Origin: an uncultured bacterium
GTDB lineage: Bacteria; Patescibacteriota; Minisyncoccia; Phycocordibacterales; GWA1-40-21
NCBI GenBank assembly: GCA_963716205.1
Contig: OY970290.1
Location: 239,417 to 303,416 of the forward strand
Direction: 5' to 3'
Length of the DNA: 64,000 bases
Shown here one piece after another: positions 1,230 to 34,900 of the stretch (the stretch's first letter is position 1; the number at the start of each line of letters is the position of its first letter). The notes beneath the pieces were generated by a model. That model did no database searches, was not told where the DNA came from, and saw nothing but the letters and a program-made list of their open reading frames with translations. The position numbers were made by a program, and so were the translations under genes.

Positions 1230-1302
1230 GGGCCCGTAGTTCATCTGGTAGAACGCCTCATTTGCAATGAGGAGGTAAGCGGTTCGAGTCCGCTCGGGTC
1301 CA
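1230..1302 (+). tRNA. tRNA-Ala (anticodon TGC)
   Basis: 73-nt cloverleaf: acceptor gggcccg/cgggtcc, anticodon loop tttgcaa, T-loop ttcgagt. It has the G3:U70 alanine identity pair. The 3' end is ...ggtccacc. Confidence 0.85.
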
Positions 1303-2563
1303 CCTTAGCAGACTTAAGAGGCAGAAATGCCTCTTTTGTCTTGTAAAGACTGGCTATTTCGGGAGTTCCAAATAAATTATTTTCAAACGTCAACCCTAGA
1401 GGGAATTGGAACCATTGTAATTTAACTTTTGGTCCTATTTTCGCTTTTCGCCATATTTTACTTGGGTTTTTTAGGTATTCTTCGGCAATAGCCAGTGCTT
1501 TCTCAAAATTCATTTCTGTGTTCGGAATGATCGCCAGTGATGCATTTGCCTCACCTAAATCTCTATCAATCATTGCCAATTGTTGCTTTAAAACCGTATC
1601 TGGAATGATACCGTCCAGATTTTTCTTGATAATTCCTGACTGTTTTTCCGTAAGCTCGACAATATATTTTTTTAATCGACTTGCGTCTTTTTGTTGACCC
1701 TCTGTTGCTTTGACCAAGTTATTCTCAATGCATTTTTTTAGCTTTTCAAACTTATTATCATCGAACCGATATTTTTCTAAAAATTTCATAAAATTTTTTT
1801 CAAACTCGTCACGATTGTGATTGGAATCACTCCCACCAAAGCGATAGAAGGGATATTTTTTCAAACGGCCACCTCTGGACCAACTTCCAGTAAGTTTTTT
1901 GCCATTCTCATTTACAACAAATCTGCGGAGAGGGAAGTCTGGGTGATCAGTAATATGTGGTGAATTTTTTCTACCTTTATTTTTAAGTACTGACTGAACC
2001 TGATTAAAGAGCTCTTCAGAAATAATTGGCTCAAACACACCCTTGTGTCTTTCTCCAAATTTAATGATCCATCCAGCATAAAGTTCATTGGTAAGCATCG
2101 TATAGAAATACGATTTGCAAATAGGATTTTGTTTTTTGTTCAAGAGGCCATTTTTTGTTGTCACCATCCTTCTGACAACTTCCGTTGGATAGACACCAGA
2201 AGCAATAAGTTCAAAAGTTCGCTTTACAATTGGACACATCATTTCGTTTGGAGCTATCGTTGCCTTACCGGCCATTTTTACATTATCATATCCGATTGGT
2301 GCCATCCATACATAACGACCATCTCGCATGGCTTCTTTCATGCCACCTGCACAACGTTCAGATCTAATATCGTTATCGAATTGGGCGATATTCGCCATTG
2401 TATTCTCCATAAAGCGACCTACGGGTGTATTCTCAAAATGTTCCGAGGTTGATTTGATCTCAACCCCATAACGTTTCAAAAGAAGGCGAAGTTGACTGTA
2501 GTCGTCCGTGTTTCTGGAAAGACGGTCCAATTTATAAATAATCACTGCCGGAATACAATTCAA
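1241..2563 (-). pseudogene. large serine recombinase, 5'-truncated (catalytic resolvase domain missing); 3' end reads through the tRNA-Ala gene
   Basis: The product aligns with the intact recombinase at 7516..9066 starting from its ..IVYKIDRFSRN region, so about 75 N-terminal residues including the catalytic Ser are absent. The upstream frame holds only repeat-A sequence and a TAA. The C-terminal 21 codons are the reverse complement of the tRNA-Ala(TGC) gene. Confidence 0.7.
1318..1348 (+). terminator. hairpin gaggca-gaaa-tgcctc followed by ttttgtctt (repeat module M2, copy at the native tRNA-Ala)
   Basis: Perfect 6-bp stem with a GAAA loop and a T-run immediately 3' of tRNA-Ala. The same 30-mer recurs at 22626 and 24023. 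Confidence 0.6.
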
Positions 2564-2588
2564 ATCGAGGCGAATGTTCAGGCAGCCA

Positions 2589-2820
2589 GTTCCAATTCGT
2601 CCTCTTGTTTCTCGAAATGATTTCTGAAGTTTTTAATATACAAAAAAATATGGTTCCAATCCTGGAGGATGAGGTCCACAAACACTATTTTAATACCAGT
2701 ATTAAAATAAAGGCTTTAATCATAGATTTTTCAGAATAGAAAAAATTGAAATAGGAAACGACCCAAGCCGACTCGAACCACCAACGATGAAAGTTAGCCG
2801 TATTTTATGTTTTCACTCCT
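2589..2820 (+). repeat. composite repeat copy A (left arm gttccaattcgtcctc..., M1 core ggttccaatcctggaggatgaggtccac at 2652-2679, inverted T-arm-like M3 cgactcgaacc at 2769-2779)
   Basis: Direct sequence similarity to copy B (3664-3754) in the left arm and M1, and to copies C and D in M3. It abuts the truncated recombinase. Confidence 0.75.
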
Positions 2821-2929
2821 ACCATTCAGATCTTCATCAATTTGCGAAAAAAATTAAAAATGTTACCGTTATTAACGGACATAGTTCGTTAATAAAGAAC
2901 ACCGTCCAAATAATTAAAGGAGGTCAACC

Positions 2930-3529
2930 ATGAGCAATCTCATGCTCGATGTTGATCAAGCAGGTGAGTTGAAGGCTGCATTTCGGCGTGAAGGACCGTG
3001 GACGAATGGAGAGATCAAAATGCTCACGGAGCAAAAAGGTTTACTCAGAAAGTTTCGCGAAGTATTACTTGGCCACGCCAAGATTAATTTTCTCGACACG
3101 CTGATTGATTGTGATGCAGATCCTTATCGGCTTTTCGAAAAATGGAAAGTACGAACTCACAAAAAGGGCGGAAGTTGGTCTTTCAATCCCGAGGAGGTAG
3201 AACTTTTTCCAGTAATTAATTTTGGAAATGTTCGTATCAGGGATCTTGCCGATGAATTTGTCAAACTACCGATCCTGAATGCGAATGTTCTTGATCACCT
3301 CATCAAGAGGCCTTATCTGATGCCAGATGAGTGGGAAGGAAAAAGAATCCTGTTTGCCGGAACGATTTATGAGTCTGAGAGATCTTCCAGTCAAGGTTTG
3401 GAGCCAATCATTCGCTTTTTGGAGGTTAAAGGGACTCCGCATTATTTTGGTGGTGATACATTTCGTTCTTTTTACGGCACTCCACTTGAAGTGTATTCAG
3501 AAAATTGTGTTTTGCCGATTAGAAAGTAG
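2930..3529 (+). CDS. hypothetical protein (cassette-like ORF flanked by repeats A and B)
   Basis: 199-aa ORF with a strong SD (aaaggaggtcaaccATG) and a downstream terminator. Confidence 0.6.
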   Translation: MSNLMLDVDQAGELKAAFRREGPWTNGEIKMLTEQKGLLRKFREVLLGHAKINFLDTLIDCDADPYRLFEKWKVRTHKKGGSWSFNPEEVELFPVINFGNVRIRDLADEFVKLPILNANVLDHLIKRPYLMPDEWEGKRILFAGTIYESERSSSQGLEPIIRFLEVKGTPHYFGGDTFRSFYGTPLEVYSENCVLPIRK

Positions 3530-3542
3530 TTTTAGTTTTTAA

Positions 3543-3568
3543 AGGCGCGCTTACCCCGCGCCTTTTTT
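3543..3568 (+). terminator. rho-independent terminator
   Basis: Stem ggcgcg/cgcgcc with a 7-nt loop, followed by tttttt. Confidence 0.65.
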
Positions 3569-3663
3569 ATCCACACAACTTGTCGTTCTCGATAATTTTC
3601 TACCCCTTGGCAAAATATTTTTCAGGAGTAGGATTTATACTGAGACGAATATTTAGGCAACGA

Positions 3664-3754
3664 GTTCCAATTCGTCCTCATGTTTCTCAAAATGATTTCT
3701 AAAGTTTTTGATATACAAAAAAATCTGATTCCAATTCTGTAGGATGAGGTCCAC
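3664..3754 (+). repeat. composite repeat copy B (left arm plus M1 core gattccaattctgtaggatgaggtccac)
   Basis: About 85% identical to copy A over 91 bp. Confidence 0.75.
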
Positions 3755-3781
3755 TCTGGTAGATATTTTGACACAAAAAAA

Positions 3782-3811
3782 CACTCGCGATCATATCGCG
3801 AGTGTTTTTTT
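3782..3811 (+). terminator. hairpin cactcgcgat-cat-atcgcgagtg followed by a T-run
   Basis: 10-bp perfect stem followed by ttttttt. It could also serve the minus-strand small ORF. Confidence 0.6.
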
Positions 3812-3818
3812 GTAAGAT

Positions 3819-7504: not shown

Positions 7505-7580
7505 GGGCCGCTAGCTCACTTGGTAGAGCGCTTCCATGGCATGGAAGAGGTAACCGGTTCGATCCCGGTGCGGTCCACCA
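7505..7580 (+). tRNA. tRNA-Ala (anticodon GGC), CCA encoded
   Basis: Acceptor gggccgc/gcggtcc with G3:U70, anticodon loop atggcat, T-loop ttcgatc, and a 3' ACCA. Confidence 0.85.
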
Positions 7581-9066
7581 AAGCCGACGGATTGATCAAA
7601 TATTCCCGATAAACCTCATAAACTGGGCTTAGTTTTGCGGTTCCAAATTTCTCCCCAGAAAATATTATATTTCCATTAAATATCAAGTTTTGGAACCGTA
7701 GTCGCTTTTCAGGTCTTTCATTCAGTCTAAGCCAGGTTTCCGCTGTATTTCTAATGTAGTTAAAGCAGTACTCTAAAGCCTCATCCATATTTAAGCTCTC
7801 GATTTGCTTGTCGAATATTAAAGCTTCTTTCTGAACGATTTTCCGATTAGCAGAATCCTTTTGAGCCAGGAATTCTTCTTTCGTGTAGGTGCCAGATTCA
7901 AAGAGTTCATAAATGTTTTGTCTTCTAATCTCTAGTTCTCCGATTTCTTTTCGTATTTTCCCTTTTAGTTCATCGAATTGCTTGTAATTGTTTTTCCAGA
8001 TATCAACCACGATTGTTTTAAAAGCCTTTTCAAACTGAAACGTTGGATTGATCTCATGTAGATATTCGATGAATAATTGCTCAAACGATTCTTTAGGAAT
8101 GGATTTAGCATAATCGCACTTCTGTTTATGATGGTGATAGTAAGGATATCTGATACCTTTTCGCCCCGTAGAATAGCTGCCGGTAAATGATTGTTCACAG
8201 AATTTGCAGACCGCCAGCTTTCGAAGCGGGAAAGCCGGATTTTTTGCTAAATGTGGCGTGCTTTTGTGTTGTCTTCTTCCCGTTCCCTGGCAGGTGTTGA
8301 AAAGCTTCTCATCAATAATTGGTTCAAACTTTCCCTTTATATCAATGTCCCACACCCGGATAATTCCGCAATAAATTGGATTCTTGATAATCATCTCCAT
8401 GAGTTGTCGTGTAGGAGCGTAGCCATTTCGGGTAGAAAATCCTCGATCCTTCAAGTATTTGGCAAGTGACTTTAAAGTGTGATGGCCCTTAGCAAATTCC
8501 TCAAAAATAAGACGAATATACGGGACATATTTTGGGTCAGGGGTTAGGTTGGCACCCTGGGCCAGGCGATAGTAGCCGAGGGGGGCCGGCCATACCCAAA
8601 TGCCTTTCTTTAAACGCTCCCGCATTCCATTTACACATCTTTCAGTTCGGACGTTGTTATCAAATTCAGCGAATCCCGATAACATAACCTCCATCAGCTT
8701 TCCTGATGGCGTATCGTCTATTTTTTCGGAGACTGAACGAATTTCCGTTCCGTATCCCTGAAGTTTTTGTTTGGTAATCGCGTAATCAGTCTGATTGCGG
8801 GAAAACCGGTCAATCTTGTACACAATAAAGTATTTTATCGTGTTTTTCTTGTTCGAGCAAAAGGCTACTGCCTTTGTGAACTCGGTGCGATCCACAGTTT
8901 TGGCAGACTCTCCACGCTCAATAAATACCTCCGATACGGTTACTCCCTCCCGTACCGCATACTCTTTACACATCCGTTGCTGTGATTCAAGACTCGTACC
9001 ATCTACCTGTTCGAGTGAAGACACCCGACAATAGATTATTCCGTTTTTTGTTTCTCCATTTTGCAC
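7516..9066 (-). CDS. large serine recombinase (integrase), intact; 3' end embedded in tRNA-Ala(GGC)
   Basis: 516 aa with N-terminal IIYCRVSSLEQ (catalytic Ser), a recombinase domain, and a Cys-containing region. The last 21 codons are the antisense of the tRNA-Ala gene. Confidence 0.85.
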   Translation of the reverse strand: MQNGETKNGIIYCRVSSLEQVDGTSLESQQRMCKEYAVREGVTVSEVFIERGESAKTVDRTEFTKAVAFCSNKKNTIKYFIVYKIDRFSRNQTDYAITKQKLQGYGTEIRSVSEKIDDTPSGKLMEVMLSGFAEFDNNVRTERCVNGMRERLKKGIWVWPAPLGYYRLAQGANLTPDPKYVPYIRLIFEEFAKGHHTLKSLAKYLKDRGFSTRNGYAPTRQLMEMIIKNPIYCGIIRVWDIDIKGKFEPIIDEKLFNTCQGTGRRQHKSTPHLAKNPAFPLRKLAVCKFCEQSFTGSYSTGRKGIRYPYYHHHKQKCDYAKSIPKESFEQLFIEYLHEINPTFQFEKAFKTIVVDIWKNNYKQFDELKGKIRKEIGELEIRRQNIYELFESGTYTKEEFLAQKDSANRKIVQKEALIFDKQIESLNMDEALEYCFNYIRNTAETWLRLNERPEKRLRFQNLIFNGNIIFSGEKFGTAKLSPVYEVYREYLINPSALVDRTGIEPVTSSMPWKRSTK

Positions 9067-9263
9067 GGCGGTAATTTTTTCATATCACCATCTACTTGTC
9101 GAGGTACCAAAGGCGACATTTTGGAACCATTTTTCTCTTCTATAAAACAATCAAGCGCCAACTGAGCGTGGGTATAAATGAGATTCCTAATAACCTCCAC
9201 ATCCTCGTCGGGAGCATTTTTTAAAGTCGGCTCAATTTCTCTCATTTGTTCAATGCTAATCAT
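9036..9263 (-). CDS. hypothetical small protein overlapping the integrase start (possible directionality factor)
   Basis: 75-aa acidic ORF overlapping the integrase start by 31 nt. No motif is recognised. Confidence 0.3.
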   Translation of the reverse strand: MISIEQMREIEPTLKNAPDEDVEVIRNLIYTHAQLALDCFIEEKNGSKMSPLVPRQVDGDMKKLPPCKMEKQKTE

Positions 9264-9413: not shown

Positions 9414-9731
9414 ATGTTTTATATGAGCACGTTTACAAAACCTTTAAAAAAGGGAAACCGGATTCGGATATGCCGGACGCTCGCGCGCTACACACAAGAG
9501 GAATTGTCATACCTCCTGGGCATTCCGACCACCACGCTTTCAAAATGGGAGAACAGGTCGCAGACTCCCTCGATCCATTATGCCATCGGTCTTTCGGTGG
9601 CACTCCACCGCTTGGTGGACGAAATCTTTTCGGATTATCGGAATGAGTGGGTGAAGATAATTAATCAAAGGGCGCAGATTCTTGAAAATAAAAAGTCGAA
9701 AAAAATTACGAACGATAACGATAAACGATAA
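9414..9731 (+). CDS. XRE-family helix-turn-helix transcriptional regulator
   Basis: The segment RTLARYTQEELSYLLGIPTTTLSKWENRSQTPS is a classic HTH_XRE. It is divergent from the integrase. Confidence 0.7.
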   Translation: MFYMSTFTKPLKKGNRIRICRTLARYTQEELSYLLGIPTTTLSKWENRSQTPSIHYAIGLSVALHRLVDEIFSDYRNEWVKIINQRAQILENKKSKKITNDNDKR

Positions 9732-10965: not shown

Positions 10966-11568
10966 ATGAAAGATATAAAGTCAGAATCCATTTTAGTAAT
11001 GAAAATCGGCTACCATGGAGCCGAAGATATTGACACTATTATTGCGAGAAAAAAAGAAGAAGAAAAAAAATGCGGTCAAACCTATTGGGGTTATGGCGGG
11101 GTATTATGCCACCCAATCCGAGTTGTCCAAAATTTTGCATCGCAAGTCGGAACGAAAAAAATCAAAGTTCTTTTCAGTGTTACCAAATCCCCATTCCAAT
11201 CTGATCCGACGCGAGCAAAATATTTTTCCGAGGACGGAAAAACATGGTCACCATTACATGACAGCGCCAATGTTCTGGCATCAAAATTTGCAATAGTTCT
11301 TCGTTCTCTCAAAGCATGTAAAAAGACAATAGTTCTTAACGATTATTGTGTCCCAATAGGTCCTTCAAAGGGGCGTCCCCTTAACGAATATCTAAGATTT
11401 CGTGTTGATAAAGCGGTCGGAACATTATCGAACAAAAAGAACCTGGGTCCCCTTAAGAGTCTTCCGATCCAGTTTGAGGCTGATTTGGTCCCGCCTTACG
11501 CCATCTTGGTGAGTCACCAGCATCAACCTGAGTCCCATCATCCATCACAAATTTCCCTTCCTTATTGA
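10966..11568 (+). CDS. hypothetical protein
   Basis: 200-aa ORF whose 3' end overlaps the convergent recombinase fusion by 116 nt. Confidence 0.4.
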   Translation: MKDIKSESILVMKIGYHGAEDIDTIIARKKEEEKKCGQTYWGYGGVLCHPIRVVQNFASQVGTKKIKVLFSVTKSPFQSDPTRAKYFSEDGKTWSPLHDSANVLASKFAIVLRSLKACKKTIVLNDYCVPIGPSKGRPLNEYLRFRVDKAVGTLSNKKNLGPLKSLPIQFEADLVPPYAILVSHQHQPESHHPSQISLPY

Positions 11569-13984
11569 TATAAGCTGGAATTTTCCTGTCTTTGCTCCCA
11601 TAGAATTTAGGCATTGCATCATCTTTTATTTTTTGGCCCTCAAAAGGAGCCGGACAATTATAGACACGATCTAAAACAAGATTTGCCGACCGTAAACTAG
11701 GTCGGTCTTCGAGATGATATTGATGAATTTCACGAATCATTTCAGAAACTACATACCCGTGCTTGCATAAAAATTCTTGAATGTTCGCCATTGCTTCTCT
11801 ACTCCAATCTTCCTTATGAGCAAAAGGCAAAATAGCCATTCCCCAACTTGGAGCTGGTTTGCAAAATTCCATGCAACGTCCTAGAAATAGTTTCCCGCAT
11901 TCGCCCTTGTCAACTGATCCATAAGGAGGGTTCGTGTAGAACACTTCATGAGCGCCTTTATATTTTTCAGGGATTGGATCTCGAACATTGTAGCGATGAA
12001 CCGAAATAAGATCGGGAGGAAGGCGCAAGTCGTCGATTACTTGTTCAATAAATGCTAAAAGCCTTTCATCAAAATCGAAAATACGAATTTTGGCCGGTCC
12101 TTTGAAAACATCTCGATTAGCAAGATGCGCAATAACCAAACCCATACAATCGCCATCACCAACAAATGCAACGTCTCTGTATTTCAGATAATCAATTGCT
12201 AAAAGTGCCTGAGTTGCTTGGCTTCCGGGAAGCATAAAGACTTGATCTATTGAACGGATTGGACGTGGTCTATCTGGATGTTGCGTGACCTGTGCAACTA
12301 AATCCACAATAGCCGCATCAGGCCTCACCCCCAGGCTGAGAGCCACGTCTTTTTGCCACAGCCTCAGGTCAAGGCGGCGCTTTCGGATATGGTCCCCAAG
12401 GGTTGTTAGGCTCTTAGGGTAGGCAGGATTTTGTGGTTTTTTGGCCGATAATTGAAAGTTAATGAATGGCAACGCAGGAATGAGGTTGTGTTGCTTTTCA
12501 TTAGTCAATTCAGCGGTCGAGGGAATATAGGCGAGGGATATGGAAATATCATCCGAGCCTATAGTGATCCTATCGGTGATATTCTCGATGATCCGCCGTT
12601 TTTCTTCGAAAACCAGTTCTTTCCATTTGGAATAAAGGTCTTTGGCCTCGGATATGATCTCGTCACTTGAGAGGTATTTGATCTTGAGGAAGTCTATCTC
12701 TCCCTGAAGGTCCGGGAGCTGGGCCTTGACCTTCTCCAAGCGCTCTTCATTTTCCCGGAATTCGGTTCCAAAGGTCTTCACGCTGATCTCGTCGTTGTAA
12801 TAGGCTTTTTTTATCTTGTCCATTTGGCTTTCGATTTTGGCACGCTCTTTCTCAAGCCGCTCTAAGAGTTCCTGCTTTTCCTGAATGACCATATCGGCCC
12901 GTTCAAGGTGCTTGGAAATCTCAACCGGGGAAAAGAAGAAGTTTTTTAATTGTTCATGGAATATGGATTCAAGATCATCCGGGAGTATCTTGTTCCTGCA
13001 TTTGGCACAGGTATATTTCGACGCATTCGGCGGTATGGGCATCTTGCCCCCGCAGTGACAAAAGACGAAGCCGGTGAAAAGATGTGTTGGCCTTTTGGCG
13101 GGTTTCTTACGTTTCGATTCCTGTTCCCTTAAGATAGCGTTGCACTGATCCCACAATTCAGCAGAAACAATGGGCTCTACCTCGACATATTCCCATTCCG
13201 CTTTGGGCTTCATCACCCATGCTTTGCCGTCGCCCAGGCTCTTCGTGTAATTGAGCCGGTGCTTTCCTTTGGCCGTGGGGTCTTGGAGAAGACGGTCAAC
13301 AGTGGTATCGGAAAACTTTGAGCCTTTGCGCGTCCGATATCCCTTGTCATTGAGAATCCGGGCAACAGTTTTCTTGCGGTGATGTTCAAGGAAATATTCA
13401 AAGATGAGTTTTGCAATGGGAACCTCTTTGGGTTCAGGGATGAGTTGTTTGTCTTTCCAGCGATAACCGAAAGGAGCCTGACCGCCAAGGGGTTTGCCGA
13501 GCTTTGCCCGGATGGGGACAGAGGCGGCCACCCGCGAAGCGATTTCTTCCCGTTCCCATTGGGCCATGGCCGCGATCATGGTGTAGAAGAGACGACCAGC
13601 AGGGGTTGAAGTATCGATGGATTCTTGGAGGGAAATTAAATCGGCGTCACTCTCATTGAAGAGGTCGGCGAAATCTAAAAGCTCTCTAGTGTTTCGGGCA
13701 AGGCGAGCAAGTTTCGAGAAGATGAGTCCTGTGATATGGCCGGACTTAATATGCCCAAGCATCTTTTGAGCTTCCGGGTGGGCAATGACTGCTTTGCCGC
13801 TTACTGCCTCTAAGTGATAGACCTCTTTGACATTCCAACCCTTCGACTCTGCATAATACCGCGCCCGTTTCTCATGGTGTTCAGGGCTTTCCCCCCGCGC
13901 CTGATCTTCCGTTGAAACACGAATCCAAATACCGACGTTTTTCTTTCCTTGGTTTTTTTCCACGAGCGCACCTCCACAAATCAA
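11453..13984 (-). CDS. large serine recombinase fused to a C-terminal HTH plus DUF43/BpsA-like SAM-dependent transferase (methyltransferase-like) domain
   Basis: 843 aa with N-terminal IWIRVSTEDQ (catalytic Ser), a recombinase domain, a Cys cluster CHCGG..CAKC, and a coiled coil. After about residue 500 it continues with LGDHIRKRRLDLRLWQKDVALSLGV (HTH-like), VAFVGDGDCMGL (GDGD), and VFYTNPPYG (NPPY). Confidence 0.8.
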   Translation of the reverse strand: MICGGALVEKNQGKKNVGIWIRVSTEDQARGESPEHHEKRARYYAESKGWNVKEVYHLEAVSGKAVIAHPEAQKMLGHIKSGHITGLIFSKLARLARNTRELLDFADLFNESDADLISLQESIDTSTPAGRLFYTMIAAMAQWEREEIASRVAASVPIRAKLGKPLGGQAPFGYRWKDKQLIPEPKEVPIAKLIFEYFLEHHRKKTVARILNDKGYRTRKGSKFSDTTVDRLLQDPTAKGKHRLNYTKSLGDGKAWVMKPKAEWEYVEVEPIVSAELWDQCNAILREQESKRKKPAKRPTHLFTGFVFCHCGGKMPIPPNASKYTCAKCRNKILPDDLESIFHEQLKNFFFSPVEISKHLERADMVIQEKQELLERLEKERAKIESQMDKIKKAYYNDEISVKTFGTEFRENEERLEKVKAQLPDLQGEIDFLKIKYLSSDEIISEAKDLYSKWKELVFEEKRRIIENITDRITIGSDDISISLAYIPSTAELTNEKQHNLIPALPFINFQLSAKKPQNPAYPKSLTTLGDHIRKRRLDLRLWQKDVALSLGVRPDAAIVDLVAQVTQHPDRPRPIRSIDQVFMLPGSQATQALLAIDYLKYRDVAFVGDGDCMGLVIAHLANRDVFKGPAKIRIFDFDERLLAFIEQVIDDLRLPPDLISVHRYNVRDPIPEKYKGAHEVFYTNPPYGSVDKGECGKLFLGRCMEFCKPAPSWGMAILPFAHKEDWSREAMANIQEFLCKHGYVVSEMIREIHQYHLEDRPSLRSANLVLDRVYNCPAPFEGQKIKDDAMPKFYGSKDRKIPAYINKEGKFVMDDGTQVDAGDSPRWRKAGPNQPQTGSEDS

Positions 13985-22451: not shown

Positions 22452-22496
22452 TAATGGCCTTAGACTGTCACACTTTTGGAGCGGCGTTTACACATC

Positions 22497-22800
22497 AAGC
22501 AACCGATTTTTCTTTTTCAGGAAAGTCAGGTATGTTTAAAGAGACGTGAAATTCCCAGAATTCCCTAAGACTTTTGAAAATTAGGTTCCAATTCTGTAAG
22601 GTGTGGTCCACTCTGGTGAACATTGGAGGCAGAAATGCCTCTTTTGTCTTTTAAAGATTAGCTATCTTGATGGTTTAAAGAAAAAATTTTTCTAAAAAAC
22701 AGACGGCTCTAATTATGGATAGAAATTAATGACCCAAGGCGACTCGAACCGATAACGAAAGTTAGCTGTATTTTGTTTCTTTCGTTCATACCAGACCTCC
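22497..22800 (+). repeat. composite repeat copy C (left arm ccgatttttctttttcaggaaa..gtgaaattcc, M1 22584-22611, hairpin M2 22626-22656, inverted T-arm-like M3 about 22704-22790)
   Basis: About 80% identical to copy D over about 280 bp. M2 and the flank also match the sequence downstream of tRNA-Ala(TGC). Confidence 0.8.
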
Positions 22801-22855
22801 CATCATTGACAAATCCCTACTAAATGTAATCATTCCTTTATTAATAAAACTAATC

Positions 22856-23881
22856 ATGGAAGGAAAAACTCATTTTGAAAATATTGTAGGTGGAACACAA
22901 GAAGAGAAAAATGAGATTTTGTATGAATTACAAAAGACTTTTGAAACTCGTTCAGAAAAGCTTACAAAATATGAACTAGAAAAAACTATAGAAGATATAG
23001 GGCTTATTAAAAATACGGAATTGGTTGTAGATAAAATTGTGAGTCAATATGGAGGCAAACCGAAATCAATATCACTTGATCATATATATATCCTCAAGCC
23101 GGGGTCGGTGCTCGAAATGACCGAGGGAAAATTAGCAAGGGGTCTTCACCAGCCAGTAGGGCTTAATATTGGTGTTGAGAAGAAAGAATCAAAATTATTA
23201 TTTGCAAGTACTATTGCACATGAACTTTTTCATCTGAAATCTTACAAATCTGCACGTAAAGGAGAATCGGTTGATGACATAAGATTATACAGAACTGGAC
23301 TTTCAATGATTGACATCAAGGATGAGTCAAAAAAGGCTGGCGAAGAAAAAGAATATTTTTCTCAACTAGAGGAAGCTGTTGTGGTTGAATGCACTAGAAA
23401 ATTTCTTGATAACATCAGTATGGATAAGGAATTTAGACCAGAAACAGAGGCAATTAAAAAAATCAAAAATTGGGTTACTGAATTTTATAAAAGACGAGGA
23501 ATATCTCAAGATAAAATAGAAGAATTTAATGATGAGATAAAATATATATCAGATCCAGAGAAGTGGGTTTCGGACGTAGAAAATGCATACACTGAAGAAA
23601 ATAGAAAGCAGGCATATGCAGCAGGAATGTTTGAGTCACTTTATAAAAATGGTTCCGCAGAATCTATGGAAAGATATACAGAAAGAAAAAAACTATATGA
23701 TCTTCTTGATAAATTAGTTTTAGAATCCAATAGAAAATATAAAAATCGTAATGAATTATTTGACGAGTTTGCAAAAGCAAATTTTTCTGGTAATTATCTG
23801 CCGTTGGCGAAAATAATTGAGAGTATTTTAGGAAAAGGGTCATTCAGAAAAATAGCAGAAGATTTTAGTAATAAATCTTAA
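22856..23881 (+). CDS. hypothetical HExxH-motif protein (putative metallopeptidase)
   Basis: 341 aa with IAHELFH and no signal peptide. A cassette-like ORF between repeats C and D. Confidence 0.5.
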   Translation: MEGKTHFENIVGGTQEEKNEILYELQKTFETRSEKLTKYELEKTIEDIGLIKNTELVVDKIVSQYGGKPKSISLDHIYILKPGSVLEMTEGKLARGLHQPVGLNIGVEKKESKLLFASTIAHELFHLKSYKSARKGESVDDIRLYRTGLSMIDIKDESKKAGEEKEYFSQLEEAVVVECTRKFLDNISMDKEFRPETEAIKKIKNWVTEFYKRRGISQDKIEEFNDEIKYISDPEKWVSDVENAYTEENRKQAYAAGMFESLYKNGSAESMERYTERKKLYDLLDKLVLESNRKYKNRNELFDEFAKANFSGNYLPLAKIIESILGKGSFRKIAEDFSNKS

Positions 23882-23892
23882 AACATAATGAT

Positions 23893-24170
23893 TAAGCAGC
23901 CGATTTTTCTTTTTCAGGAAAATCTGGTATGTCTACAGAATCGTGAAATTCCTGGAATGCCTTGATGCTCTCGTATATTTGATTCCAATTTCGTAAGATG
24001 AGGTCCACCCAAGCTGACAAAAGAGGCAGAAATGCCTCTTTTGTCTTGTAAGGGCTAGCTATCTTGGTATTTCCAAAATAATTTTTCTCTAAATATCCAA
24101 CGGCTCTAATTATGGATATAGATTAATGACCCTACACGACTCGAACCAATTTTGATAATTTTTTAGACAG
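23893..24170 (+). repeat. composite repeat copy D (left arm, M1 23981-24008, hairpin M2 24023-24053, M3 about 24101-24165)
   Basis: See copy C. M1 is gattccaatttcgtaagatgaggtccac. Confidence 0.8.
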
Positions 24171-24236
24171 TGTTACGCTATAGGAACAGATGTTATTTTT
24201 AGTTTTGGTATGAATCAGTATTAATTAAATAATAAA

Positions 24237-25283
24237 ATGTTCAATTTTTTACATAAAATTATATCAGCCATAGGTACTGCGATTGTTTCCGTAGGATTGC
24301 TTTTCACTGGGACGCACATATCAACCAAAATTCCTAATACACCTCTCGTAAGTACTTCCACTTCCCAAGTTGAAGTTGTAAGCACAAGCACAATAGTAAA
24401 TACAGGTTCTATAACTAAACCTTCTCCAGTTCAAACACCAACAATTGTGCAACCTCTAATCGTCTCTTGCAGTGCAGATATGGCAAATGCTTCTCCCGGA
24501 CAAACTATTATATGGACTGCACAAACATCAGGAGGTAATGGTAGTCATTCTTATACTTGGGCAGGGGATGGCGGTTTATCTAGTACCAATCAATCGCCAA
24601 CTATTTCCTGGTCATATAATTCTACGGGGATTATGAATGCGAGAGTGAGTGTGACTTCTGGAACACAAACAGTGAATGCTAACTGTAAAAATTCTGTTAT
24701 AGTCACTCAAGTAGAATCAGCACAAAACAATAATCAGAATCAAGTCCAAGCTCAAACAAATTCTCAAGAACAAGCTATCCAAAGTGTTATCACTGCTTAT
24801 ACACAAAAAGAAGGATCTATTCAGCAAGAAATTGATGATGTGCAAGGTCAAATGCAAGAATCACAAAATAATAATTGTTCTAATAATATTGGAGAAGGTG
24901 AGGGCGCACTTGAATGCACTGCAAGTGCTGAAGAGATAACAGCCAATGAAAGTTATGTTAGTAATTTACAGACACAAAATGGAATTTTACAAAAAGTTCA
25001 AGTAGAATTACAAAATGATATTTCCCAGGAGGTATCTCTGACTCAAGATCAGATTGATTCATATATGCAAAATATAACTATTCTTGGTCAAATTGATACA
25101 CTTGAACAACAAATCACTGCATTAAAAATAAAAAGTATCGGTGAGATAATGGGATATGAAACAAGTGGAGGTACAGAAGCTGTTGCTGAAGGTGAAGCAA
25201 ATTTGATAACGACACAAGAAAATGCACAGATTGATTCATTAAATTCACAGATTCAGGTTTTAGCTGCTGAACTGGTTCAATAA
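24237..25283 (+). CDS. hypothetical secreted/membrane-anchored protein with a PKD-like beta domain and a Q/N-rich coiled-coil tail
   Basis: N-terminal TM or signal segment, a Cys-bounded beta domain (CSADMANASPGQTIIWTAQTSGG...NC), and a glutamine-rich C-terminus. Confidence 0.5.
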   Translation: MFNFLHKIISAIGTAIVSVGLLFTGTHISTKIPNTPLVSTSTSQVEVVSTSTIVNTGSITKPSPVQTPTIVQPLIVSCSADMANASPGQTIIWTAQTSGGNGSHSYTWAGDGGLSSTNQSPTISWSYNSTGIMNARVSVTSGTQTVNANCKNSVIVTQVESAQNNNQNQVQAQTNSQEQAIQSVITAYTQKEGSIQQEIDDVQGQMQESQNNNCSNNIGEGEGALECTASAEEITANESYVSNLQTQNGILQKVQVELQNDISQEVSLTQDQIDSYMQNITILGQIDTLEQQITALKIKSIGEIMGYETSGGTEAVAEGEANLITTQENAQIDSLNSQIQVLAAELVQ

Positions 25284-25319
25284 AAATTGGCTCAAGAAGC
25301 TAGTTAATCTTCAAGGGAA

Positions 25320-25390
25320 CTATGAAATTCCCAGAACGCCTCTAGGCTTTCGTATATTGGGTTCCAATTCCGTATAATGAGGTCCACCAA
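25320..25390 (+). repeat. partial composite repeat copy E (gaaattcccagaa... plus M1 ggttccaattccgtataatgaggtccac)
   Basis: Matches the left arm and M1 of copies C and D but lacks M2 and M3. It lies 80 bp upstream of tRNA-Ala(CGC). Confidence 0.65.
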
Positions 25391-25466
25391 CGACGATGAA
25401 TTTTGTAAGACAAGGTCCACACAGAGTTTTTTATTTTATCGGAATATGTTAGAGTAGCAAACGCCT

Positions 25467-25537
25467 GGGCCTATAGTATAGTGGTAGCACGCGTCATTCG
25501 CATTGACGAGACGGCAGTCCGATTCTGCCTAGGTCCA
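25467..25537 (+). tRNA. tRNA-Ala (anticodon CGC)
   Basis: Acceptor gggccta/taggtcc with G3:U70, anticodon loop ttcgcat. The T-loop is tccgatt, with C at position 55. Confidence 0.7.
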
Positions 25538-25575
25538 CAAAAGCAGAAAATCTAAACTGCTTGATAAATAAATTT

Positions 25576-31073: not shown

Positions 31074-31928
31074 ATGTTTACAAATTATCAAAAAATAAGC
31101 AGAGCCATAGGCAATTTTACAATAGTTGTCCTTTTAGCTGTTGCATCACTCAGTTTTGCTTCAGTAGCCCATGCGGACTACTTTGCAACAACAACATTGA
31201 CCTCAACAAGTTCAATGAATTTCTTTACAGTTCCTGCTGGAGTTACCAGTATTAATGCGACTCTTACTGCAGGCGGTGGCGGTGGCGGTGGCGGAGCATA
31301 CTCGTTTGGAGGTGGCGGTGGCGGAGCAGGAGGAGTATATTCTGTAGAAGCGATTCCAGTTATTCCTGGACAAATAATCGCATATACAGTTGGAGCAGGT
31401 GGTGTTGGTGGCACTAGTGGCTTTATAAATGTTGCAGGTGGAAATGGTGCTGATGGAGGAAATACCGTTTTGACTCTTGGAGCATCAGGTATTATGGAAA
31501 TTGGTGGAAAAGGAGGAATGGGAGCTATCTACGGAAATTCAAATAGTGGAAAAGGTGGACTCGCAGGCGGTCTTGGTGGAACAAATGGTACTAACGGTGA
31601 TGACCAGATAAATACTCAAAGAAATTACGGAGGCACTGGTGGTTCAACACCAAACGGTCTTGCCGGAATCGGAGGATATGGTGATGCTAATACATACAGA
31701 CTTCCAACAACTGGAACAAATGGTGCTGGAGGCGGAGCAGGAAGCGGATGGGCTTCTGGTGATGGCGTCTATCGTGATGCTGGTGCAAATGGCGGAGATG
31801 GTTCAATAGTACTTAGTTATTTTGCCGATCTTACTGCCTCCTGTTATTACCATTACTGGTTCAAGCACTCTTACACTTCAAGCAAGTTCAACTGGTGTTT
31901 ATGTAGATGCCGGAGCAACTGCACTTGA
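31074..31928 (+). CDS. glycine-rich N-terminal segment (signal peptide plus GGxGG repeats), probably the N-terminal part of the giant surface protein separated by a frameshift near 31820
   Basis: Signal peptide MFTNYQKISRAIGNFTIVVLLAVASLSFASVAHA then a Gly-rich domain. The frame ends in nonsense (..CYYHYWFKHS..) while the +1 frame continues as the adhesin. Confidence 0.5.
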   Translation: MFTNYQKISRAIGNFTIVVLLAVASLSFASVAHADYFATTTLTSTSSMNFFTVPAGVTSINATLTAGGGGGGGGAYSFGGGGGGAGGVYSVEAIPVIPGQIIAYTVGAGGVGGTSGFINVAGGNGADGGNTVLTLGASGIMEIGGKGGMGAIYGNSNSGKGGLAGGLGGTNGTNGDDQINTQRNYGGTGGSTPNGLAGIGGYGDANTYRLPTTGTNGAGGGAGSGWASGDGVYRDAGANGGDGSIVLSYFADLTASCYYHYWFKHSYTSSKFNWCLCRCRSNCT

Positions 31929-34900
31929 TAATGTTGATGGAGTGGTGCCGGTAACAACAACTTTTAATAATGTAAATCTTGCGGCAACAGGAACCTATTC
32001 TGTTGTCTATTCTGCTACCGATGCGGCTGGAAATACAGCTACAACTTCACGAACGGTGATTGTCATTGATACGACAGCGCCAGTTATAACTTTTGTTCCG
32101 GGCACGCAAGTTTTTGAAGCGACAGGCGCAACAACAACTCCAATATTAGCACCAATTATAGCTACGGATGCCTTTGGTCCAAGCCCGGTTATTACCTATT
32201 CACCCATTAGTTTTGGTCTCGGAACCACAACAGTCACTTGGACAGCAACTGATCCAAATACTGGAAATACTGTTATCGCCACATCCAGCGTTGTTATAAA
32301 GGACACAACTGCACCAGTAATTGTCCTTAACGGAACAAATCCGATGAATGTCCTTTATGGGTCTGTATTTATAGACCCAGGAGCGACAGCTTATGACCTT
32401 GTAGATGGAACAACTACAGTTACAACGACTTTTGATAATGTAAATACTGCAGCAACAGGAACATATTCTGTTGTTTATTCTGCTGTCGATTTGTCAGGAA
32501 ATGCAACAAGTTCAACACGAATTGTGAATGTTCTTGCAACTGCACCAGTTCTTACAACACTTTCTATTTCACCATTAAATTTAACAACAACAGTCGGCAC
32601 CACAACACAGTTTGTGGCTACAGCACTTGATCAATACGGAAATCCAATTGCAGCTTCCGTTTTCTGGGGACCATCAAATCCTTCTGTTGGAACAATCGGT
32701 TTCAATACAGGCTTGTTTAATGCAGTTTCAGTTGGAACAACGACAATCACGGCAATCAGCGGAGCATTTAATGCTACTACAACAGTCACCGTTGTTCCCC
32801 TTGTTGCCACGTCTTCACCTTCAGCGGTGACAATTACCAATTCAACATTAGGCGGAACATTTTTTGCTTCTTATATTCCAACACTTGCTGAAACTACAGT
32901 TGCACCAATTGGAACGACAACTGGCACTACGACAATTACAAATTCTACATTGTCTGGATCATGGAACGTAAATAATTCAACACTTACAACAACTACGCTC
33001 GGCACTTCAACATTGGATAATGTAATTTCTACAAATTCTGTCATTACAAATTCCAATGCTACAAATTGTACAATTCTTAATTCATCTATCGATGGTTATT
33101 TACTTTCAAATTGCTATGTTGCGAACTCAACCTTTGATCCTGGAGCAATTGTAAATTCAACCACGACAAGCGTATCAGGATCAGATGCATTTATATACGA
33201 TTCAACAGTTAGTAATTCAACCGTTTCAACATCAACTATCCATGGATCAACTATAGCTGATTCAATAGTTACGTTTAGCTCCGTTGCCACATCTACGATT
33301 ACGAATAATTCAAATGTTGCAAGTTCAACAATAATTTTGTCAAATATTGATAATTCGCAAGTTACGAATTCAACGATTACCAATAGCACGATAATTCTTG
33401 GTTCAGTGATTTCATCTTCAACATTGACCAATGTCACTGCTGCAAGTTCAACAATCACGAATACAACTTTGTCTGATGCGACAACTACAAATGCAGTCAT
33501 TGATAGCGGTACTATATATAGTGGAACAATTACGATTGGCGGAAATACATTTACTGTTACTGAACCAACCTTGCTTTCAGATTTGATTGAACCGACAATA
33601 ACTTCTGTTACGCCAAATTCTGGCTCAATTAATGGAGGAACAAATATTATTATTGATGGAACTAACTTTGCATCAAGTACAGCAACCGTTGGCGGAGTTT
33701 TGGCAACAAATATTATTGTTGCAAGCAGCACAGAAATTACAGCAACAACTCCAGCTGGAGCAGCGGGTGCAGCTGATGTCGTTGTTACAAACACTAATGA
33801 TGGAGGCATTGCCACTTCAACTGGAGGATTTATGTATACATCAGGCGGAGGATCGGGAAGTTCAACCAGTTCCGATGACACCTTGAGCAACTTGACGGTC
33901 TCAGCCGGAACGCTCGCACCAGCTTTTGCCGCAGGAACACTTTCATATACTGACACATTGCCAGCAGGAACCGTTATCATTCCGACAGTCACGGCGACGA
34001 CAAATGATGCAAACGCAACCGACACAATTACTCAAGCATCCGCTTTGCCGGGATCAGCAACCATTGCAGTCACGGCACAAGATGGAACGACCACACAAAC
34101 ATATACCGTTGCTTTCACGGTATCAGGCGGAGGATCGGGAAGTTCAACCAGTTCCGATGACACCTTGAGCAACTTGACGGTCTCAGCCGGAACGCTCGCA
34201 CCAGCTTTTGCCGCAGGAACACTTTCATATACTGACACATTGCCAGCAGGAACCGTTATCATTCCGACAGTCACGGCGACGACAAATGATGCAAACGCAA
34301 CCGACACAATTACTCAAGCATCCGCTTTGCCGGGATCAGCAACCATTGCAGTCACGGCACAAGATGGAACGACCACACAAACATATACCGTTGCTTTCAC
34401 GGTATCAGGCGGAGGATCGGGAAGTTCAACCAGTTCCGATGACACCTTGAGCAACTTGACGGTCTCAGCCGGAACGCTCGCACCAGCTTTTGCCGCAGGA
34501 ACACTTTCATATACTGACACATTGCCAGCAGGAACCGTTATCATTCCGACAGTCACGGCGACGACAAATGATGCAAACGCAACCGACACAATTACTCAAG
34601 CATCCGCTTTGCCGGGATCAGCAACCATTGCAGTCACGGCACAAGATGGAACGACCACACAAACATATACCGTTGCTTTCACGGTATCAGGCGGAGGATC
34701 GGGAAGTTCAACCAGTTCCGATGACACCTTGAGCAACTTGACGGTCTCAGCCGGAACGCTCGCACCAGCTTTTGCCGCAGGAACACTTTCATATACTGAC
34801 ACATTGCCAGCAGGAACCGTTATCATTCCGACAGTCACGGCGACGACAAATGATGCAAACGCAACCGACACAATTACTCAAGCATCCGCTTTGCCGGGAT

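What the first reader, a model, noticed from the sequence alone, without database searches (positions are those of the whole stretch)
2589..3754. A single ORF bounded by direct repeats A and B, joined to the truncated integrase
Copies A (2589-2679) and B (3664-3754) share about 85% identity. Each has two ttccaattc boxes and the gaggtccac core. They flank the 199-aa hypothetical gene 2930-3529 as direct repeats.

Copy A also carries the inverted T-arm-like module seen in copies C and D. Copy A replaces the 5' end of the integrase gene.

This looks like one more cassette of the same family, using a variant left arm.
Basis: seen in the sequence. Interest (0 to 1): 0.6.

Follow-up and report, generated by a model that had tools for sequence, protein, structure and literature searches.

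The report
Leftover ends of tRNA-targeting mobile elements
The two repeats around the 199-aa gene are the cut-off last 33 codons of serine-recombinase genes, left by mobile elements that inserted into a tRNA-Ala gene; the locus is a fossil, but it exposes a recombinase family whose recombination site lies inside its own gene.

Summary
Copies A and B are real direct repeats, longer than reported (2550-2679 and 3625-3754; 130 nt, 85%), ending sharply at GGTCCAC.

They are not cassette arms of a new kind. On the minus strand each is the last 33 codons, stop codon and 3'UTR of a large serine recombinase (LSR) gene, cut at GGTCCAC. That block is also the 3' acceptor end of the three tRNA-Ala genes in the window.

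In this LSR family of candidate-phyla-radiation bacteria, attP lies inside the recombinase gene. Integration into a tRNA 3' end leaves the gene body reading into the antisense tRNA. The tail goes to the far end of the element.

Support:
- Of the best 120 homologs, 90 end in antisense-tRNA peptides and 15 in W-N tails. One (P0002) nearly matches A/B.
- Detached tails lie 2.5-8 kb upstream in 12 of 21 related loci.
- The tail's T-loop-like box sits 5 bp further from the core than the tRNA's T-loop, the known LSR attP/attB rule.

A and B diverged mainly at third codon positions, so they come from two separate elements. The locus is a decayed array at tRNA-Ala(UGC), with a catalytically dead recombinase fused to tail A. 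Cassette mobility is not shown, and the inverted T-arm module is unexplained.

The parts
1230..1304 (+). tRNA-Ala(UGC), intact. Its 3' acceptor end carries the crossover core GGTCCAC (1297-1303). It forms the B arm of the attL-type junction.
   Evidence: ARAGORN; Rfam tRNA 67 bits; core matches.
1241..2563 (-). Rec1, an N-terminally truncated large serine recombinase pseudogene. The recombinase proper is 1305-2563. The ORF runs in frame through the core (..KSAKVD|PSGLEPLTSSLQMRRSTR*) into the antisense tRNA. A hairpin at 1316-1335 encodes the conserved K.KEAFLP motif and looks like a terminator for the tRNA.
   Evidence: Translation; Pfam Resolvase from profile position 66 plus Recombinase; homologs about 78 aa longer at the N-terminus; terminator-like hairpin.
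2550..2679 (-). Copy A, an attR-type P arm. Tail codons 2581-2679 read VDLILQDWNHIFLYIKNFRNHFEKQEDELELAA. Stop codon at 2578-2580. About 15 nt of 3'UTR follow, down to the deletion scar at 2563. Proximal box GGTTCCAATCC at 2653-2663 (NWN codons; predicted zinc-ribbon-domain motif). Core GGTCCAC at 2673-2679.
   Evidence: (tail HMM E = 3.8e-11).
2680..2756 (.). Flank to the right of core A. AT-rich, with a perfect 11-bp hairpin at 2686-2709. It does not look like recombinase coding sequence. It starts A-rich, like the flanks of unoccupied tRNA-Ala sites in relatives.
2757..2830 (+). The 'module'. It is an inverted (antisense) copy of the 3' T-arm and acceptor part of tRNA-Ala: GACCCAAGCCGACTCGAACC, 18/20 to the antisense of tRNA-Ala(UGC). 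About 50 nt more are shared with the module at 22728. Origin and role are unexplained.
   Evidence: (D10).
2930..3529 (+). ORF199, a real conserved gene of unknown function. Its conserved leader lies at about 2874-2929, and a GC hairpin plus T-run follows at about 3541-3570.
   Evidence: 176 homologs in Patescibacteria; leader 89% identical to L083/L084; AlphaFold model pLDDT 80.8 with no PDB match; hairpin read directly from the sequence.
3568..3754 (-). Copy B with its longer 3'UTR, an attR-type P arm of a second P0002-like element. Tail codons 3656-3754 read VDLILQNWNQIFLYIKNFRNHFEKHEDELELVA. Stop codon at 3653-3655. UTR homologous to L001 at 3568-3652. Box GATTCCAATTC at 3728-3738. Core at 3748-3754.
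   Evidence: E = 9.4e-12; 169 nt, 80% to L001.
3755..3813 (+). Flank to the right of core B. It begins TCTGGT (reads ..TRVD on the minus strand, as at copy C), possibly a short recombinase 3'-end remnant. A 19-bp terminator-like hairpin lies at 3773-3813.
7505..9263 (-). Reference example in the same window: tRNA-Ala(GGC) 7505-7580 on the + strand, the full-length recombinase Rec2 (7516..9066) reading ..SALVD|RTGIEPVTSSMPWKRSTK* into the antisense tRNA, and a conserved 75-aa ORF (9036..9263) overlapping its start.
22494..25420 (-). Far end of the 15-kb Rec2 element (tail C, 22498-22612), followed by two recombinase-less one-gene units bounded by tails D (23895-24009) and E (25307-25388). A tiny further tail start lies at 25400-25420. 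C and D are each followed by a Rec1-type recombinase 3'-end remnant and a module.
   Evidence: (D3, D4, D6, D10).

Best explanation
Copies A and B are fossil right-end junctions (attR-type) of integrative elements that use a large serine recombinase (LSR) and target the 3' end of tRNA-Ala.

How the family works. The attP site lies inside the recombinase's own gene, about 25-55 codons before the stop. Crossover occurs in a short block shared with the tRNA acceptor end, here GGTCCAC. Integration cuts the gene in two. The body stays next to the tRNA and reads through the core into the antisense tRNA until a stop codon. The last about 33 codons, the stop and the 3'UTR (the 'tail') end up at the other end of the element.

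What A and B are. Each is one such tail from a P0002-like recombinase gene. Their core-proximal 'ttccaattc' box doubles as the NWN codons and as a T-loop mimic. It is placed 5 bp further from the core than the tRNA's own T-loop, which is what is expected of a P-type half-site for the recombinase's zinc-ribbon domain.

History of the locus. A and B come from two separately acquired, related elements. A third element of a different LSR subfamily (Rec1) sits next to tRNA-Ala(UGC). A later deletion removed the catalytic N-terminus of Rec1 and everything up to 15 nt beyond the stop codon of tail A. So 1305-3754 is a decayed tandem array and is probably immobile today.

Shown: what the repeats are, the split-gene architecture, the 5-bp shift, and the independent origin of A and B. 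Inferred: the order of events. It remains open whether ORF199 is surviving cargo of the outer element or chromosomal DNA.
For: 1. All five copies read as one open minus-strand frame ending in a stop.
2. Rec1 and Rec2 both read in frame through GTGGAC into antisense tRNA-Ala.
3. Among the best 120 Rec2 homologs, 90 end in antisense-tRNA peptides (..LVTLRGIEP....VDPSGLEP..) and 15 end in 14-53-aa W-N tails. P0002 ends ..LKNWNQIFLYIKNFRHNFDKQEADLELIA.
4. L001 DNA aligns with the reverse complement of A and B through the stop codon into the 3'UTR: about 25 nt for A and about 85 nt for B, with 169 nt at 80% for B.
5. The two tail types are interspersed in the family. P0047 (W tail) is 86.8% identical to P0050 (tRNA tail).
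6. In 15 of 21 close genomic relatives the recombinase 3' end overlaps an antisense tRNA (Glu, Ala, Lys, Arg). Twelve of the 21 carry a tail-like mini-ORF 2.5-8 kb upstream on the same strand.
7. The T-loop-like box lies 5 bp further from the core in the tail than in the tRNA in 8 of 9 comparisons, with one tie at 4/5. This matches the rule published for LSR att sites (PMC3783163).
8. A and B differ at 11 nt in 33 codons. By codon position the differences are 1, 2 and 8; 7 codon changes are synonymous and 4 are not. They therefore diverged as coding sequence.
9. Rec1 is about 30% identical to the Rec2/P0002 lineage.
10. Related ddl-tRNA-Ala(UGC) loci have no recombinase and no tail after the tRNA.
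Against: - The flank right of core A does not look like a recombinase 3' end. A simple tandem-array model needs a further deletion starting exactly at the core, or else ORF199 is chromosomal and B arrived by a separate event.
- Canonical LSRs do not recombine attP with attL or attR, so how tandem arrays form is not explained.
- Three units (A-B, C-D, D-E) share the layout core, 77-117 nt, module, gene, tail. That looks more regular than random decay.
- No experiment or read-level evidence for either recombination state of this locus was available.
Confidence: 0.75

Rival explanations
1. The A-B unit is a live, non-autonomous gene cassette. Its tail-plus-core repeats would be recombination sites used in trans by the intact recombinase Rec2. 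ORF199, like the C-D and D-E units, could then be excised as a circle and re-inserted at tRNA-Ala sites, giving an integron-like system run by a serine recombinase.
For: - Three one-gene units share the same layout, and copies C and D share a 260-nt block at 78%.
- An independent array of tail-flanked small ORFs lies next to tRNA-Val in L023.
- The module of unit D-E matches the tRNA-Ala of another lineage (19/20 to L091's) better than this genome's, so that unit was imported.
- An intact Rec2 with very similar P arms is present in the window.
Against: - A and B both carry P-type left half-sites. Canonical LSRs do not recombine two such sites (PMC3783163).
- No circular junction or A/B-fused empty site was seen. 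L088 has the same arrangement, and L089 ends inside the repeats.
- ORF199 homologs elsewhere sit in housekeeping neighbourhoods with no tails and no tRNA.
- A and B diverged as coding sequence rather than as conserved non-coding sites.
Confidence: 0.12
2. Copy A is the terminal right junction of the array. Everything from 2680 through ORF199 is native chromosome downstream of tRNA-Ala(UGC). Copy B is the last remnant of an unrelated insertion of a P0002-like element into a secondary, tRNA-like site beyond ORF199.
For: - The flank right of A begins A-rich with a hairpin, like unoccupied tRNA-Ala flanks in L094 and L131.
- L091/L092, which have ddl and tRNA-Ala(UGC) but no recombinase, carry an inverted T-arm copy 83 nt after the tRNA. 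That resembles the 77 nt plus module found after core A.
- ORF199 has host-like G+C: 0.427, against 0.412 for the window and 0.33-0.36 for the other units.
- Its family is chromosomal elsewhere.
Against: - The left junction of such a second insertion is gone and no secondary site can be identified.
- ORF199 is not syntenic with tRNA-Ala in any relative.
- Modules also occur inside the tRNA-Ala(GGC) array, where they cannot be native flank.
Confidence: 0.3
3. A and B arose by local duplication of one sequence, through unequal crossing-over or replication slippage, and have since drifted apart.
For: They are direct repeats 1075 nt apart at 85-88% identity.
Against: - Eight of the 11 coding differences are at third codon positions, and 7 of 11 changed codons are synonymous. 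My binomial estimate for at least 8 of 11 at one position is about 0.009. Neutral drift of a dead duplicate would not give this.
- B keeps about 60 nt more of the L001-like 3'UTR than A.
- The flanks on either side are unrelated.
Confidence: 0.03

Closest known systems
att sites of large serine integrases (Listeria A118/LI, Bxb1, phiC31), as described by Rutherford et al. 2013, PMC3783163
   Same: - The recombinase has Resolvase, Recombinase and zinc-ribbon domains.
- The sites are short and share only a small core.
- One recognition motif appears in both partners, 5 bp further from the centre in attP than in attB.
- Hybrid junctions flank the inserted element.
   Different: - The target is the 3' end of tRNA genes. 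A 2014 survey stated that serine integrases were not known to target tRNA genes (PMC4383910).
- attP lies inside the recombinase's own coding sequence, so integration exchanges the enzyme's C-terminus.
- Tandem arrays occur, which the canonical pairing rules do not predict.
tRNA-linked genomic islands in tandem arrays, including tycheposons (bioRxiv 10.1101/2020.12.28.424599)
   Same: - Site-specific insertion next to a tRNA.
- Successive insertions push older elements outward.
- Degenerate remnants remain: fragmented integrases and extra att copies.
- A minority of tycheposons (27 of 937) carry a large serine recombinase.
   Different: - In those islands the repeats are partial tRNA copies.
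- Here only 7 nt are shared with the tRNA. The rest of the repeat is the recombinase's own 3' coding end, with a T-loop mimic.
Archaeal SSV-type 'suicidal' integrases (PMC8371274)
   Same: The recombination site lies within the integrase gene, tRNA genes are the targets, and integration partitions the gene into two pieces at the two ends of the element.
   Different: - Those are tyrosine recombinases and are reported as exclusive to archaea.
- Their split separates the N-terminal part from the catalytic domain and inactivates the enzyme.
- Here a bacterial serine recombinase loses only its last 25-55 residues. All recognised domains stay in one piece.
Integration-dependent immunity of mycobacteriophages such as BPs (PMC3694055)
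   Same: - attP lies inside the 3' part of a coding sequence, so the free and integrated forms express proteins with different C-termini.
- In that system the removed C-terminus is a degradation tag.
- Several tails here end in tag-like LAA, LVA, SAA, SVA, VAA.
   Different: - There the split gene is the repressor and the integrase is a tyrosine recombinase.
- Here the split gene is the serine recombinase itself.
- Any effect on protein stability is untested.
Integron gene cassettes
   Same: One ORF lies between repeated recombination-site-like sequences, arranged in arrays.
   Different: - No IntI-type tyrosine recombinase is present.
- The repeats have no attC-like internal inverted repeat.
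- ORF199 carries its own conserved leader.
- The ORFs point away from the tails, not in one common orientation behind a shared promoter.

Membership tests
Large serine recombinase integrative element (att junctions) | A recombinase with Resolvase, Recombinase and zinc-ribbon domains is encoded at the junction | tested here: met
   Rec2 has all three domains. Rec1, next to copy A, has Resolvase (from profile position 66) and Recombinase only. It is truncated and lacks the catalytic serine region.
Large serine recombinase integrative element (att junctions) | A short identical core is shared by the element end and the target, with unrelated flanks | tested here: met
   GGTCCAC is shared by A, B, C, D, E and the three tRNA-Ala 3' ends. 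Similarity between A and B stops exactly there.
Large serine recombinase integrative element (att junctions) | The zinc-ribbon-domain motif lies 5 bp further from the centre in attP half-sites than in attB half-sites | tested here: met
   The best shift is 5 in 8 of 9 tRNA/tail pairs from the window and six other loci, with one tie at 4/5. The rule is taken from PMC3783163. That the box is the actual protein-binding motif is inferred.
Large serine recombinase integrative element (att junctions) | Both hybrid junctions (attL and attR) bound one element | tested here: inconclusive
   This is met for the Rec2 element (tRNA-Ala(GGC) to tail C) and for 12 related loci. A and B are both attR-type arms. 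Their own left junctions are lost or shared.
Large serine recombinase integrative element (att junctions) | Recombination between the sites is catalysed by the enzyme | not testable with these tools
   This needs an in vitro or in vivo assay, or junction-spanning reads.
Integron gene cassette | IntI tyrosine recombinase with attI and a common promoter | tested here: not met
   The only recombinases in the locus and in related loci are serine recombinases.
Integron gene cassette | An attC site with an imperfect internal inverted repeat | tested here: not met
   The inverted-repeat scan of 2560-2960 finds nothing inside copy A. The repeat is an open reading frame on the minus strand.
SSV-type suicidal integrase | attP lies inside the integrase gene, which is partitioned on integration | tested here: met
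SSV-type suicidal integrase | A tyrosine recombinase whose catalytic domain is separated from the N-terminal part | tested here: not met
   This is a serine recombinase, and only the last 33-38 codons are detached.
Integration-dependent switch by removal of a C-terminal tag | The C-terminus removed on integration is a degradation tag | tested here: inconclusive
   Endings of the type [AVILSQT][AVI]A occur in 4 of 5 window tails and 4 of 16 W-tail homologs. The background is 1 of 104 other recombinase homologs and 3 of 120 ORF199 relatives. The sequences are related to one another, and no stability data exist.
tRNA-linked genomic island or tycheposon-like tandem array | A full tRNA at one end and a partial tRNA copy at the other | tested here: not met
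   Only 7 nt of the tRNA are repeated. The T-loop-like box in the tail is a 5-bp-shifted mimic inside coding sequence, not a tRNA fragment.

The most novel reading that the evidence does not exclude
By placing attP inside its own 3' coding end, this recombinase family would use integration as a switch. The free element would make a recombinase with a structured C-terminal helix that often ends in a degradation-tag-like LAA or LVA. The integrated element would make a version ending in antisense-tRNA codons. This would change the enzyme's stability or directionality without outside input. The tail-flanked one-gene units would then be pieces of former hosts or cargo that the recombinase can capture and shuffle between tRNA sites, forming a serine-recombinase cassette system.
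Probability: 0.2. Interest if true: 0.8.

Novelty: new variant of a known kind. Interest (0 to 1): 0.55.

Why it matters
The A-B pair itself is debris. It matters as a clean example of an architecture I could not find described in the papers searched. Two features stand out:
- Large serine recombinases that target tRNA 3' ends. Reviews state they were not known to do this.
- A recombination site carried inside the recombinase gene, a trait reported as exclusive to archaeal tyrosine integrases.

Practical consequences:
- Three quarters of the closest database entries for this family (90 of the best 120) are annotated with C-termini that are really antisense tRNA.
- att sites of hundreds of such recombinases can be read directly from the gene plus the tRNA. 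That is useful for integrase prospecting.
- The C-terminal swap gives a testable idea for how directionality or stability of a serine integrase might be set without, or in addition to, a directionality factor.

Tried and rejected
1. Chance or low complexity as the source of the repeat: rejected.
2. Structured RNA: Rfam at E <= 1 over 1-27000 finds only the five tRNAs and sub-threshold noise. Nothing matches the repeats or the module.
3. Empty site or circle:
   - Two Logan contigs carry the exact ORF199. L088 has the same arrangement. L089 is 1036 nt, equals window 2692-3727, and has no junction.
   - Five metagenome relatives with ddl and tRNA-Ala(UGC) have no recombinase or tail, but their flanks are too diverged to serve as a true empty site.
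5. Viral origin: IMG/VR holds no relative closer than 32%, so the elements are not recognisable phages.
6. I first read the C and D junctions as hybrids of two recombinase subfamilies. I withdrew that as proof, because a Rec1-type recombinase with an intact VDLGVQFWN.. tail exists in L059.
7. The module as a functional tRNA or as continued recombinase coding sequence: ARAGORN and Rfam do not call it, its T-stem does not pair, and the recombinase frame has stops.
8. The distal 'ttccaattc' box (2589-2598): it is the ELEL codons and is not conserved in L001 (GATTTAGAAC), so it is probably coincidental.
9. Circularity of the intact-tail contigs L001 and L002: no terminal overlap.
Full report
**Observation.** Copies A and B exist and are significant.
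- The repeat finder gives 2550-2679 against 3625-3754: 130 nt, 85%, ungapped.
- The pairwise alignment shows identity running from about 2567 to 2679, then collapsing right after GGTCCAC.
- blastn gives 113 nt at 88.5%, E = 6e-36.
- The module is 78 nt to the right of A (2757-2787), not in it. B has none.

**What the repeat is.** GGTCCAC is also the 3' acceptor end of tRNA-Ala(UGC) at 1230-1304, tRNA-Ala(GGC) at 7505-7580 and tRNA-Ala(CGC) at 25467-25538. Three more copies of the repeat end in the same block: C at 22494-22612, D at 23891-24009 and E at 25307-25388.

On the minus strand all five copies are one open frame that ends in a stop, while the other frames are broken:

| Copy | Minus-strand reading |
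|---|---|
| A | VDLILQDWNHIFLYIKNFRNHFEKQEDELELAA* |
| B | VDLILQNWNQIFLYIKNFRNHFEKHEDELELVA* |
| C | VDHTLQNWNLIFKSLREFWEFHVSLNIPDFPEKEKSVA* |
| D | VDLILRNWNQIYESIKAFQEFHDSVDIPDFPEKEKSAA* |
| E | VDLIIRNWNPIYESLEAFWEFHSSLED* |

Both recombinase ORFs of the window read in frame through GTG GAC into the antisense tRNA:
- Rec1, truncated: ..KSAKVD|PSGLEPLTSSLQMRRSTR*
- Rec2, full length, with Resolvase, Recombinase and zinc-ribbon domains..SALVD|RTGIEPVTSSMPWKRSTK*

The repeat is therefore the detached 3' end of such a gene.

**Evidence from relatives.** The Rec2 search returned 1,272 homologs at E <= 1e-20.
- Of the best 120, 90 end just after a conserved ..S.LV with antisense-tRNA peptides (GIEP, GFEP, RIEL). 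Fifteen end with a 14-53-residue tail carrying W-N and a hydrophobic helix pattern.
- P0002 is 74% identical to Rec2 and ends ..LVTLCLKNWNQIFLYIKNFRHNFDKQEADLELIA. Its contig L001 has no tRNA.
- L001 aligns with the reverse complement of A and B through the stop codon into the 3'UTR. A's homology ends exactly at 2563. B's continues about 85 nt, with 169 nt at 80% overall.
- The two tail types are interspersed in the family. P0047 (W tail) is 86.8% identical to P0050 (tRNA tail), and P0053 is 84% identical to P0046. The tail type is therefore a state of the element, not a lineage trait.
- In 21 close genomic relatives, 15 recombinases overlap an antisense tRNA (Glu, Ala, Lys, Arg). Twelve of the 21 carry a tail-like mini-ORF 2.5-8 kb upstream on the same strand, which is the far end of the element.
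- Rec1-type recombinases behave the same way at tRNA-Lys, tRNA-Leu and tRNA-Ala. One has an intact VDLGVQFWN.. tail.

**Mechanistic fit.** I anchored tRNA and tail sequences on the shared core. The tRNA T-loop (GGTTCGAGT) lies 11-13 nt from the core. A T-loop-like box in the tail (GGTTCCAAT, the NWN codons) lies 16-18 nt from it. The best offset is 5 bp in 8 of 9 comparisons across the window and six other loci, with one tie at 4/5. The distal box is the ELEL codons, is not conserved in L001, and is probably coincidental.

An AlphaFold model of P0002 predicts the tail as a helix with pLDDT about 90 in its first half. The tail is therefore likely a real part of the protein as well as a DNA site.

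**History of 1305-3754.**
- A and B differ at 11 nt in their 33 codons. Eight differences are at third positions, and 7 of 11 changed codons are synonymous. They diverged while coding, so they come from two elements and not from a local duplication. C against D shows no such bias.
- Rec1 is only about 30% identical to the P0002/Rec2 lineage and lacks about 78 N-terminal residues.
- The junction at 2563 therefore joins a dead recombinase of one element to the 3'UTR of another element's tail. It is a deletion scar.
- I read the region as a decayed tandem array at tRNA-Ala(UGC).
- The same pattern holds at tRNA-Ala(GGC). A 15-kb element next to the tRNA carries an intact Rec2, a conserved 75-aa partner ORF, an HTH repressor, a second recombinase, two methyltransferases and an AAA_13 ATPase. 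Recombinase-less one-gene units lie distally.
- L023 shows the same arrangement.
- Tandem accretion with degenerate remnants is known for tRNA islands.

**What remains open.**
1. *Is ORF199 cargo or chromosome?* It belongs to a real family of 176 Patescibacteria homologs with a very conserved N-terminus. Elsewhere these homologs sit among housekeeping genes with no tails or tRNAs, and they keep a conserved leader. Its G+C is host-like. The flank right of core A is not recombinase-like. It resembles unoccupied tRNA-Ala flanks.
2. *What is the module?* It is an antisense copy of the T-arm and acceptor part of tRNA-Ala, starting right at the core.
   - A's copy is 18/20 and C's is 19/21 to this genome's tRNA-Ala(UGC).
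   - D's copy is 19/20 to the tRNA-Ala of L091, a different lineage.
   - L091/L092 have a perfect 15-nt inverted T-arm copy 83 nt after their tRNA-Ala.
   - In L021, 170-nt units that begin with an inverted tRNA-Glu 3' fragment occur three times, one of them inside the recombinase reading frame.
   - I have no mechanism for these.
3. *How do tandem arrays form?* Canonical rules forbid attP x attL recombination.

**Comparison and novelty.** The closest known systems are:
- large serine integrase att sites, which share the mechanism and the 5-bp rule;
- tRNA-island tandem arrays, which share the accretion and decay;
- archaeal SSV-type suicidal integrases, which also have attP inside the integrase gene but are tyrosine enzymes, described as exclusive to archaea, and inactivated by the split;
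- integration-dependent immunity, where attP lies in a coding 3' end and integration removes a C-terminal tag.

A 2014 survey states that serine integrases were not known to target tRNA genes. The large LSR survey I could search does not mention tRNA at all. I found no description of this architecture, but my literature access is limited.

One lead is suggestive only. Eight of 21 tails end in LAA, LVA, SAA, SVA, VAA, LIA or QAA, against about 1-3% in control sets.

**Verdict.** The finding is a correctly observed fossil. The cassette interpretation is only partly right. The value lies in the family architecture it reveals.

Noticed in passing
window 33840-35831 (inside ORF 31822..36819, + strand, 1665 aa): Seven head-to-tail copies of a 282-nt unit (94 codons), all 100% identical, inside a very large ORF. 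Perfect identity suggests recent expansion or concerted evolution of a repeat domain.
   Followed up: no
window 11453..13984 (-): A second large serine recombinase (Resolvase plus Recombinase) inside the 15-kb element. It is 843 aa and is fused to a C-terminal BpsA_C-like (branched-chain polyamine synthase) domain, which is an unusual fusion.
   Followed up: no
window 9036..9263 (-); L001 1834-2088; L002 3179-3406; also L003, L006, L007, L015, L016, L018, L020, L023: A conserved 75-84-aa ORF with no Pfam match lies immediately upstream of the recombinase and overlaps its start (39-48% identity between elements). A divergent HTH_3 repressor-like gene sits next to it (window 9414..9731). It is a candidate directionality factor or regulator.
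   Followed up: partly
L021 4817-5250 and 11441-11692: A unit of about 170 nt that begins with a 19-20-nt inverted copy of the tRNA-Glu 3' end occurs three times: twice just after tRNA-Glu and once at the recombinase 3' end. The 583-aa recombinase ORF reads ..SSLV|APRGIGP.. through the third copy and still ends in a W-N tail (..EKSWNFLQFINFN*).
   Followed up: partly
L023 3589-5924 (+) and 13010-14670 (-): An independent genome with arrays of tail-like repeats. Three lie upstream of its recombinase. Three lie on the other strand next to tRNA-Val(GAC), each separated by one small ORF and a hairpin.
   Followed up: partly
Public protein databases (P0004-P0120 and many of P0241-P0390): Most database entries of this recombinase family carry C-termini such as ..LVTLRGIEPRFKP or ..VDPTGFEPVTSSLQMKRSTN. 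These are translations of antisense tRNA genes, so their annotated ends reflect the integrated state.
   Followed up: yes
L094 about 2860-2890; L090, L094, L131 just after tRNA-Ala(UGC): L094 has a direct partial copy of the tRNA-Ala 3' end (GCGGTTCGCTCGGGTCCACC) about 170 nt downstream of the tRNA. In L090, L094 and L131 the last 5 nt of the tRNA (TCCAC) form the start of a long terminator hairpin.
   Followed up: no
window 25400-25420: A further tiny relic lies between copy E and tRNA-Ala(CGC): a core plus the first codons of a tail (VDLVLQN) fused to a recombinase-end remnant (..SSSLVD).
   Followed up: partly
window 22856..23881 (+): The ORF of unit C-D (341 aa, no Pfam match) contains an HExxH motif (IAHELFH), suggesting a metallopeptidase-like protein.
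   Followed up: no
L139 397-1886 (IMG/VR contig): Three adjacent partial matches to the ORF199 family (29-67% identity) on a 5-kb viral-collection contig, as if a repeated or fragmented copy were present.
   Followed up: no
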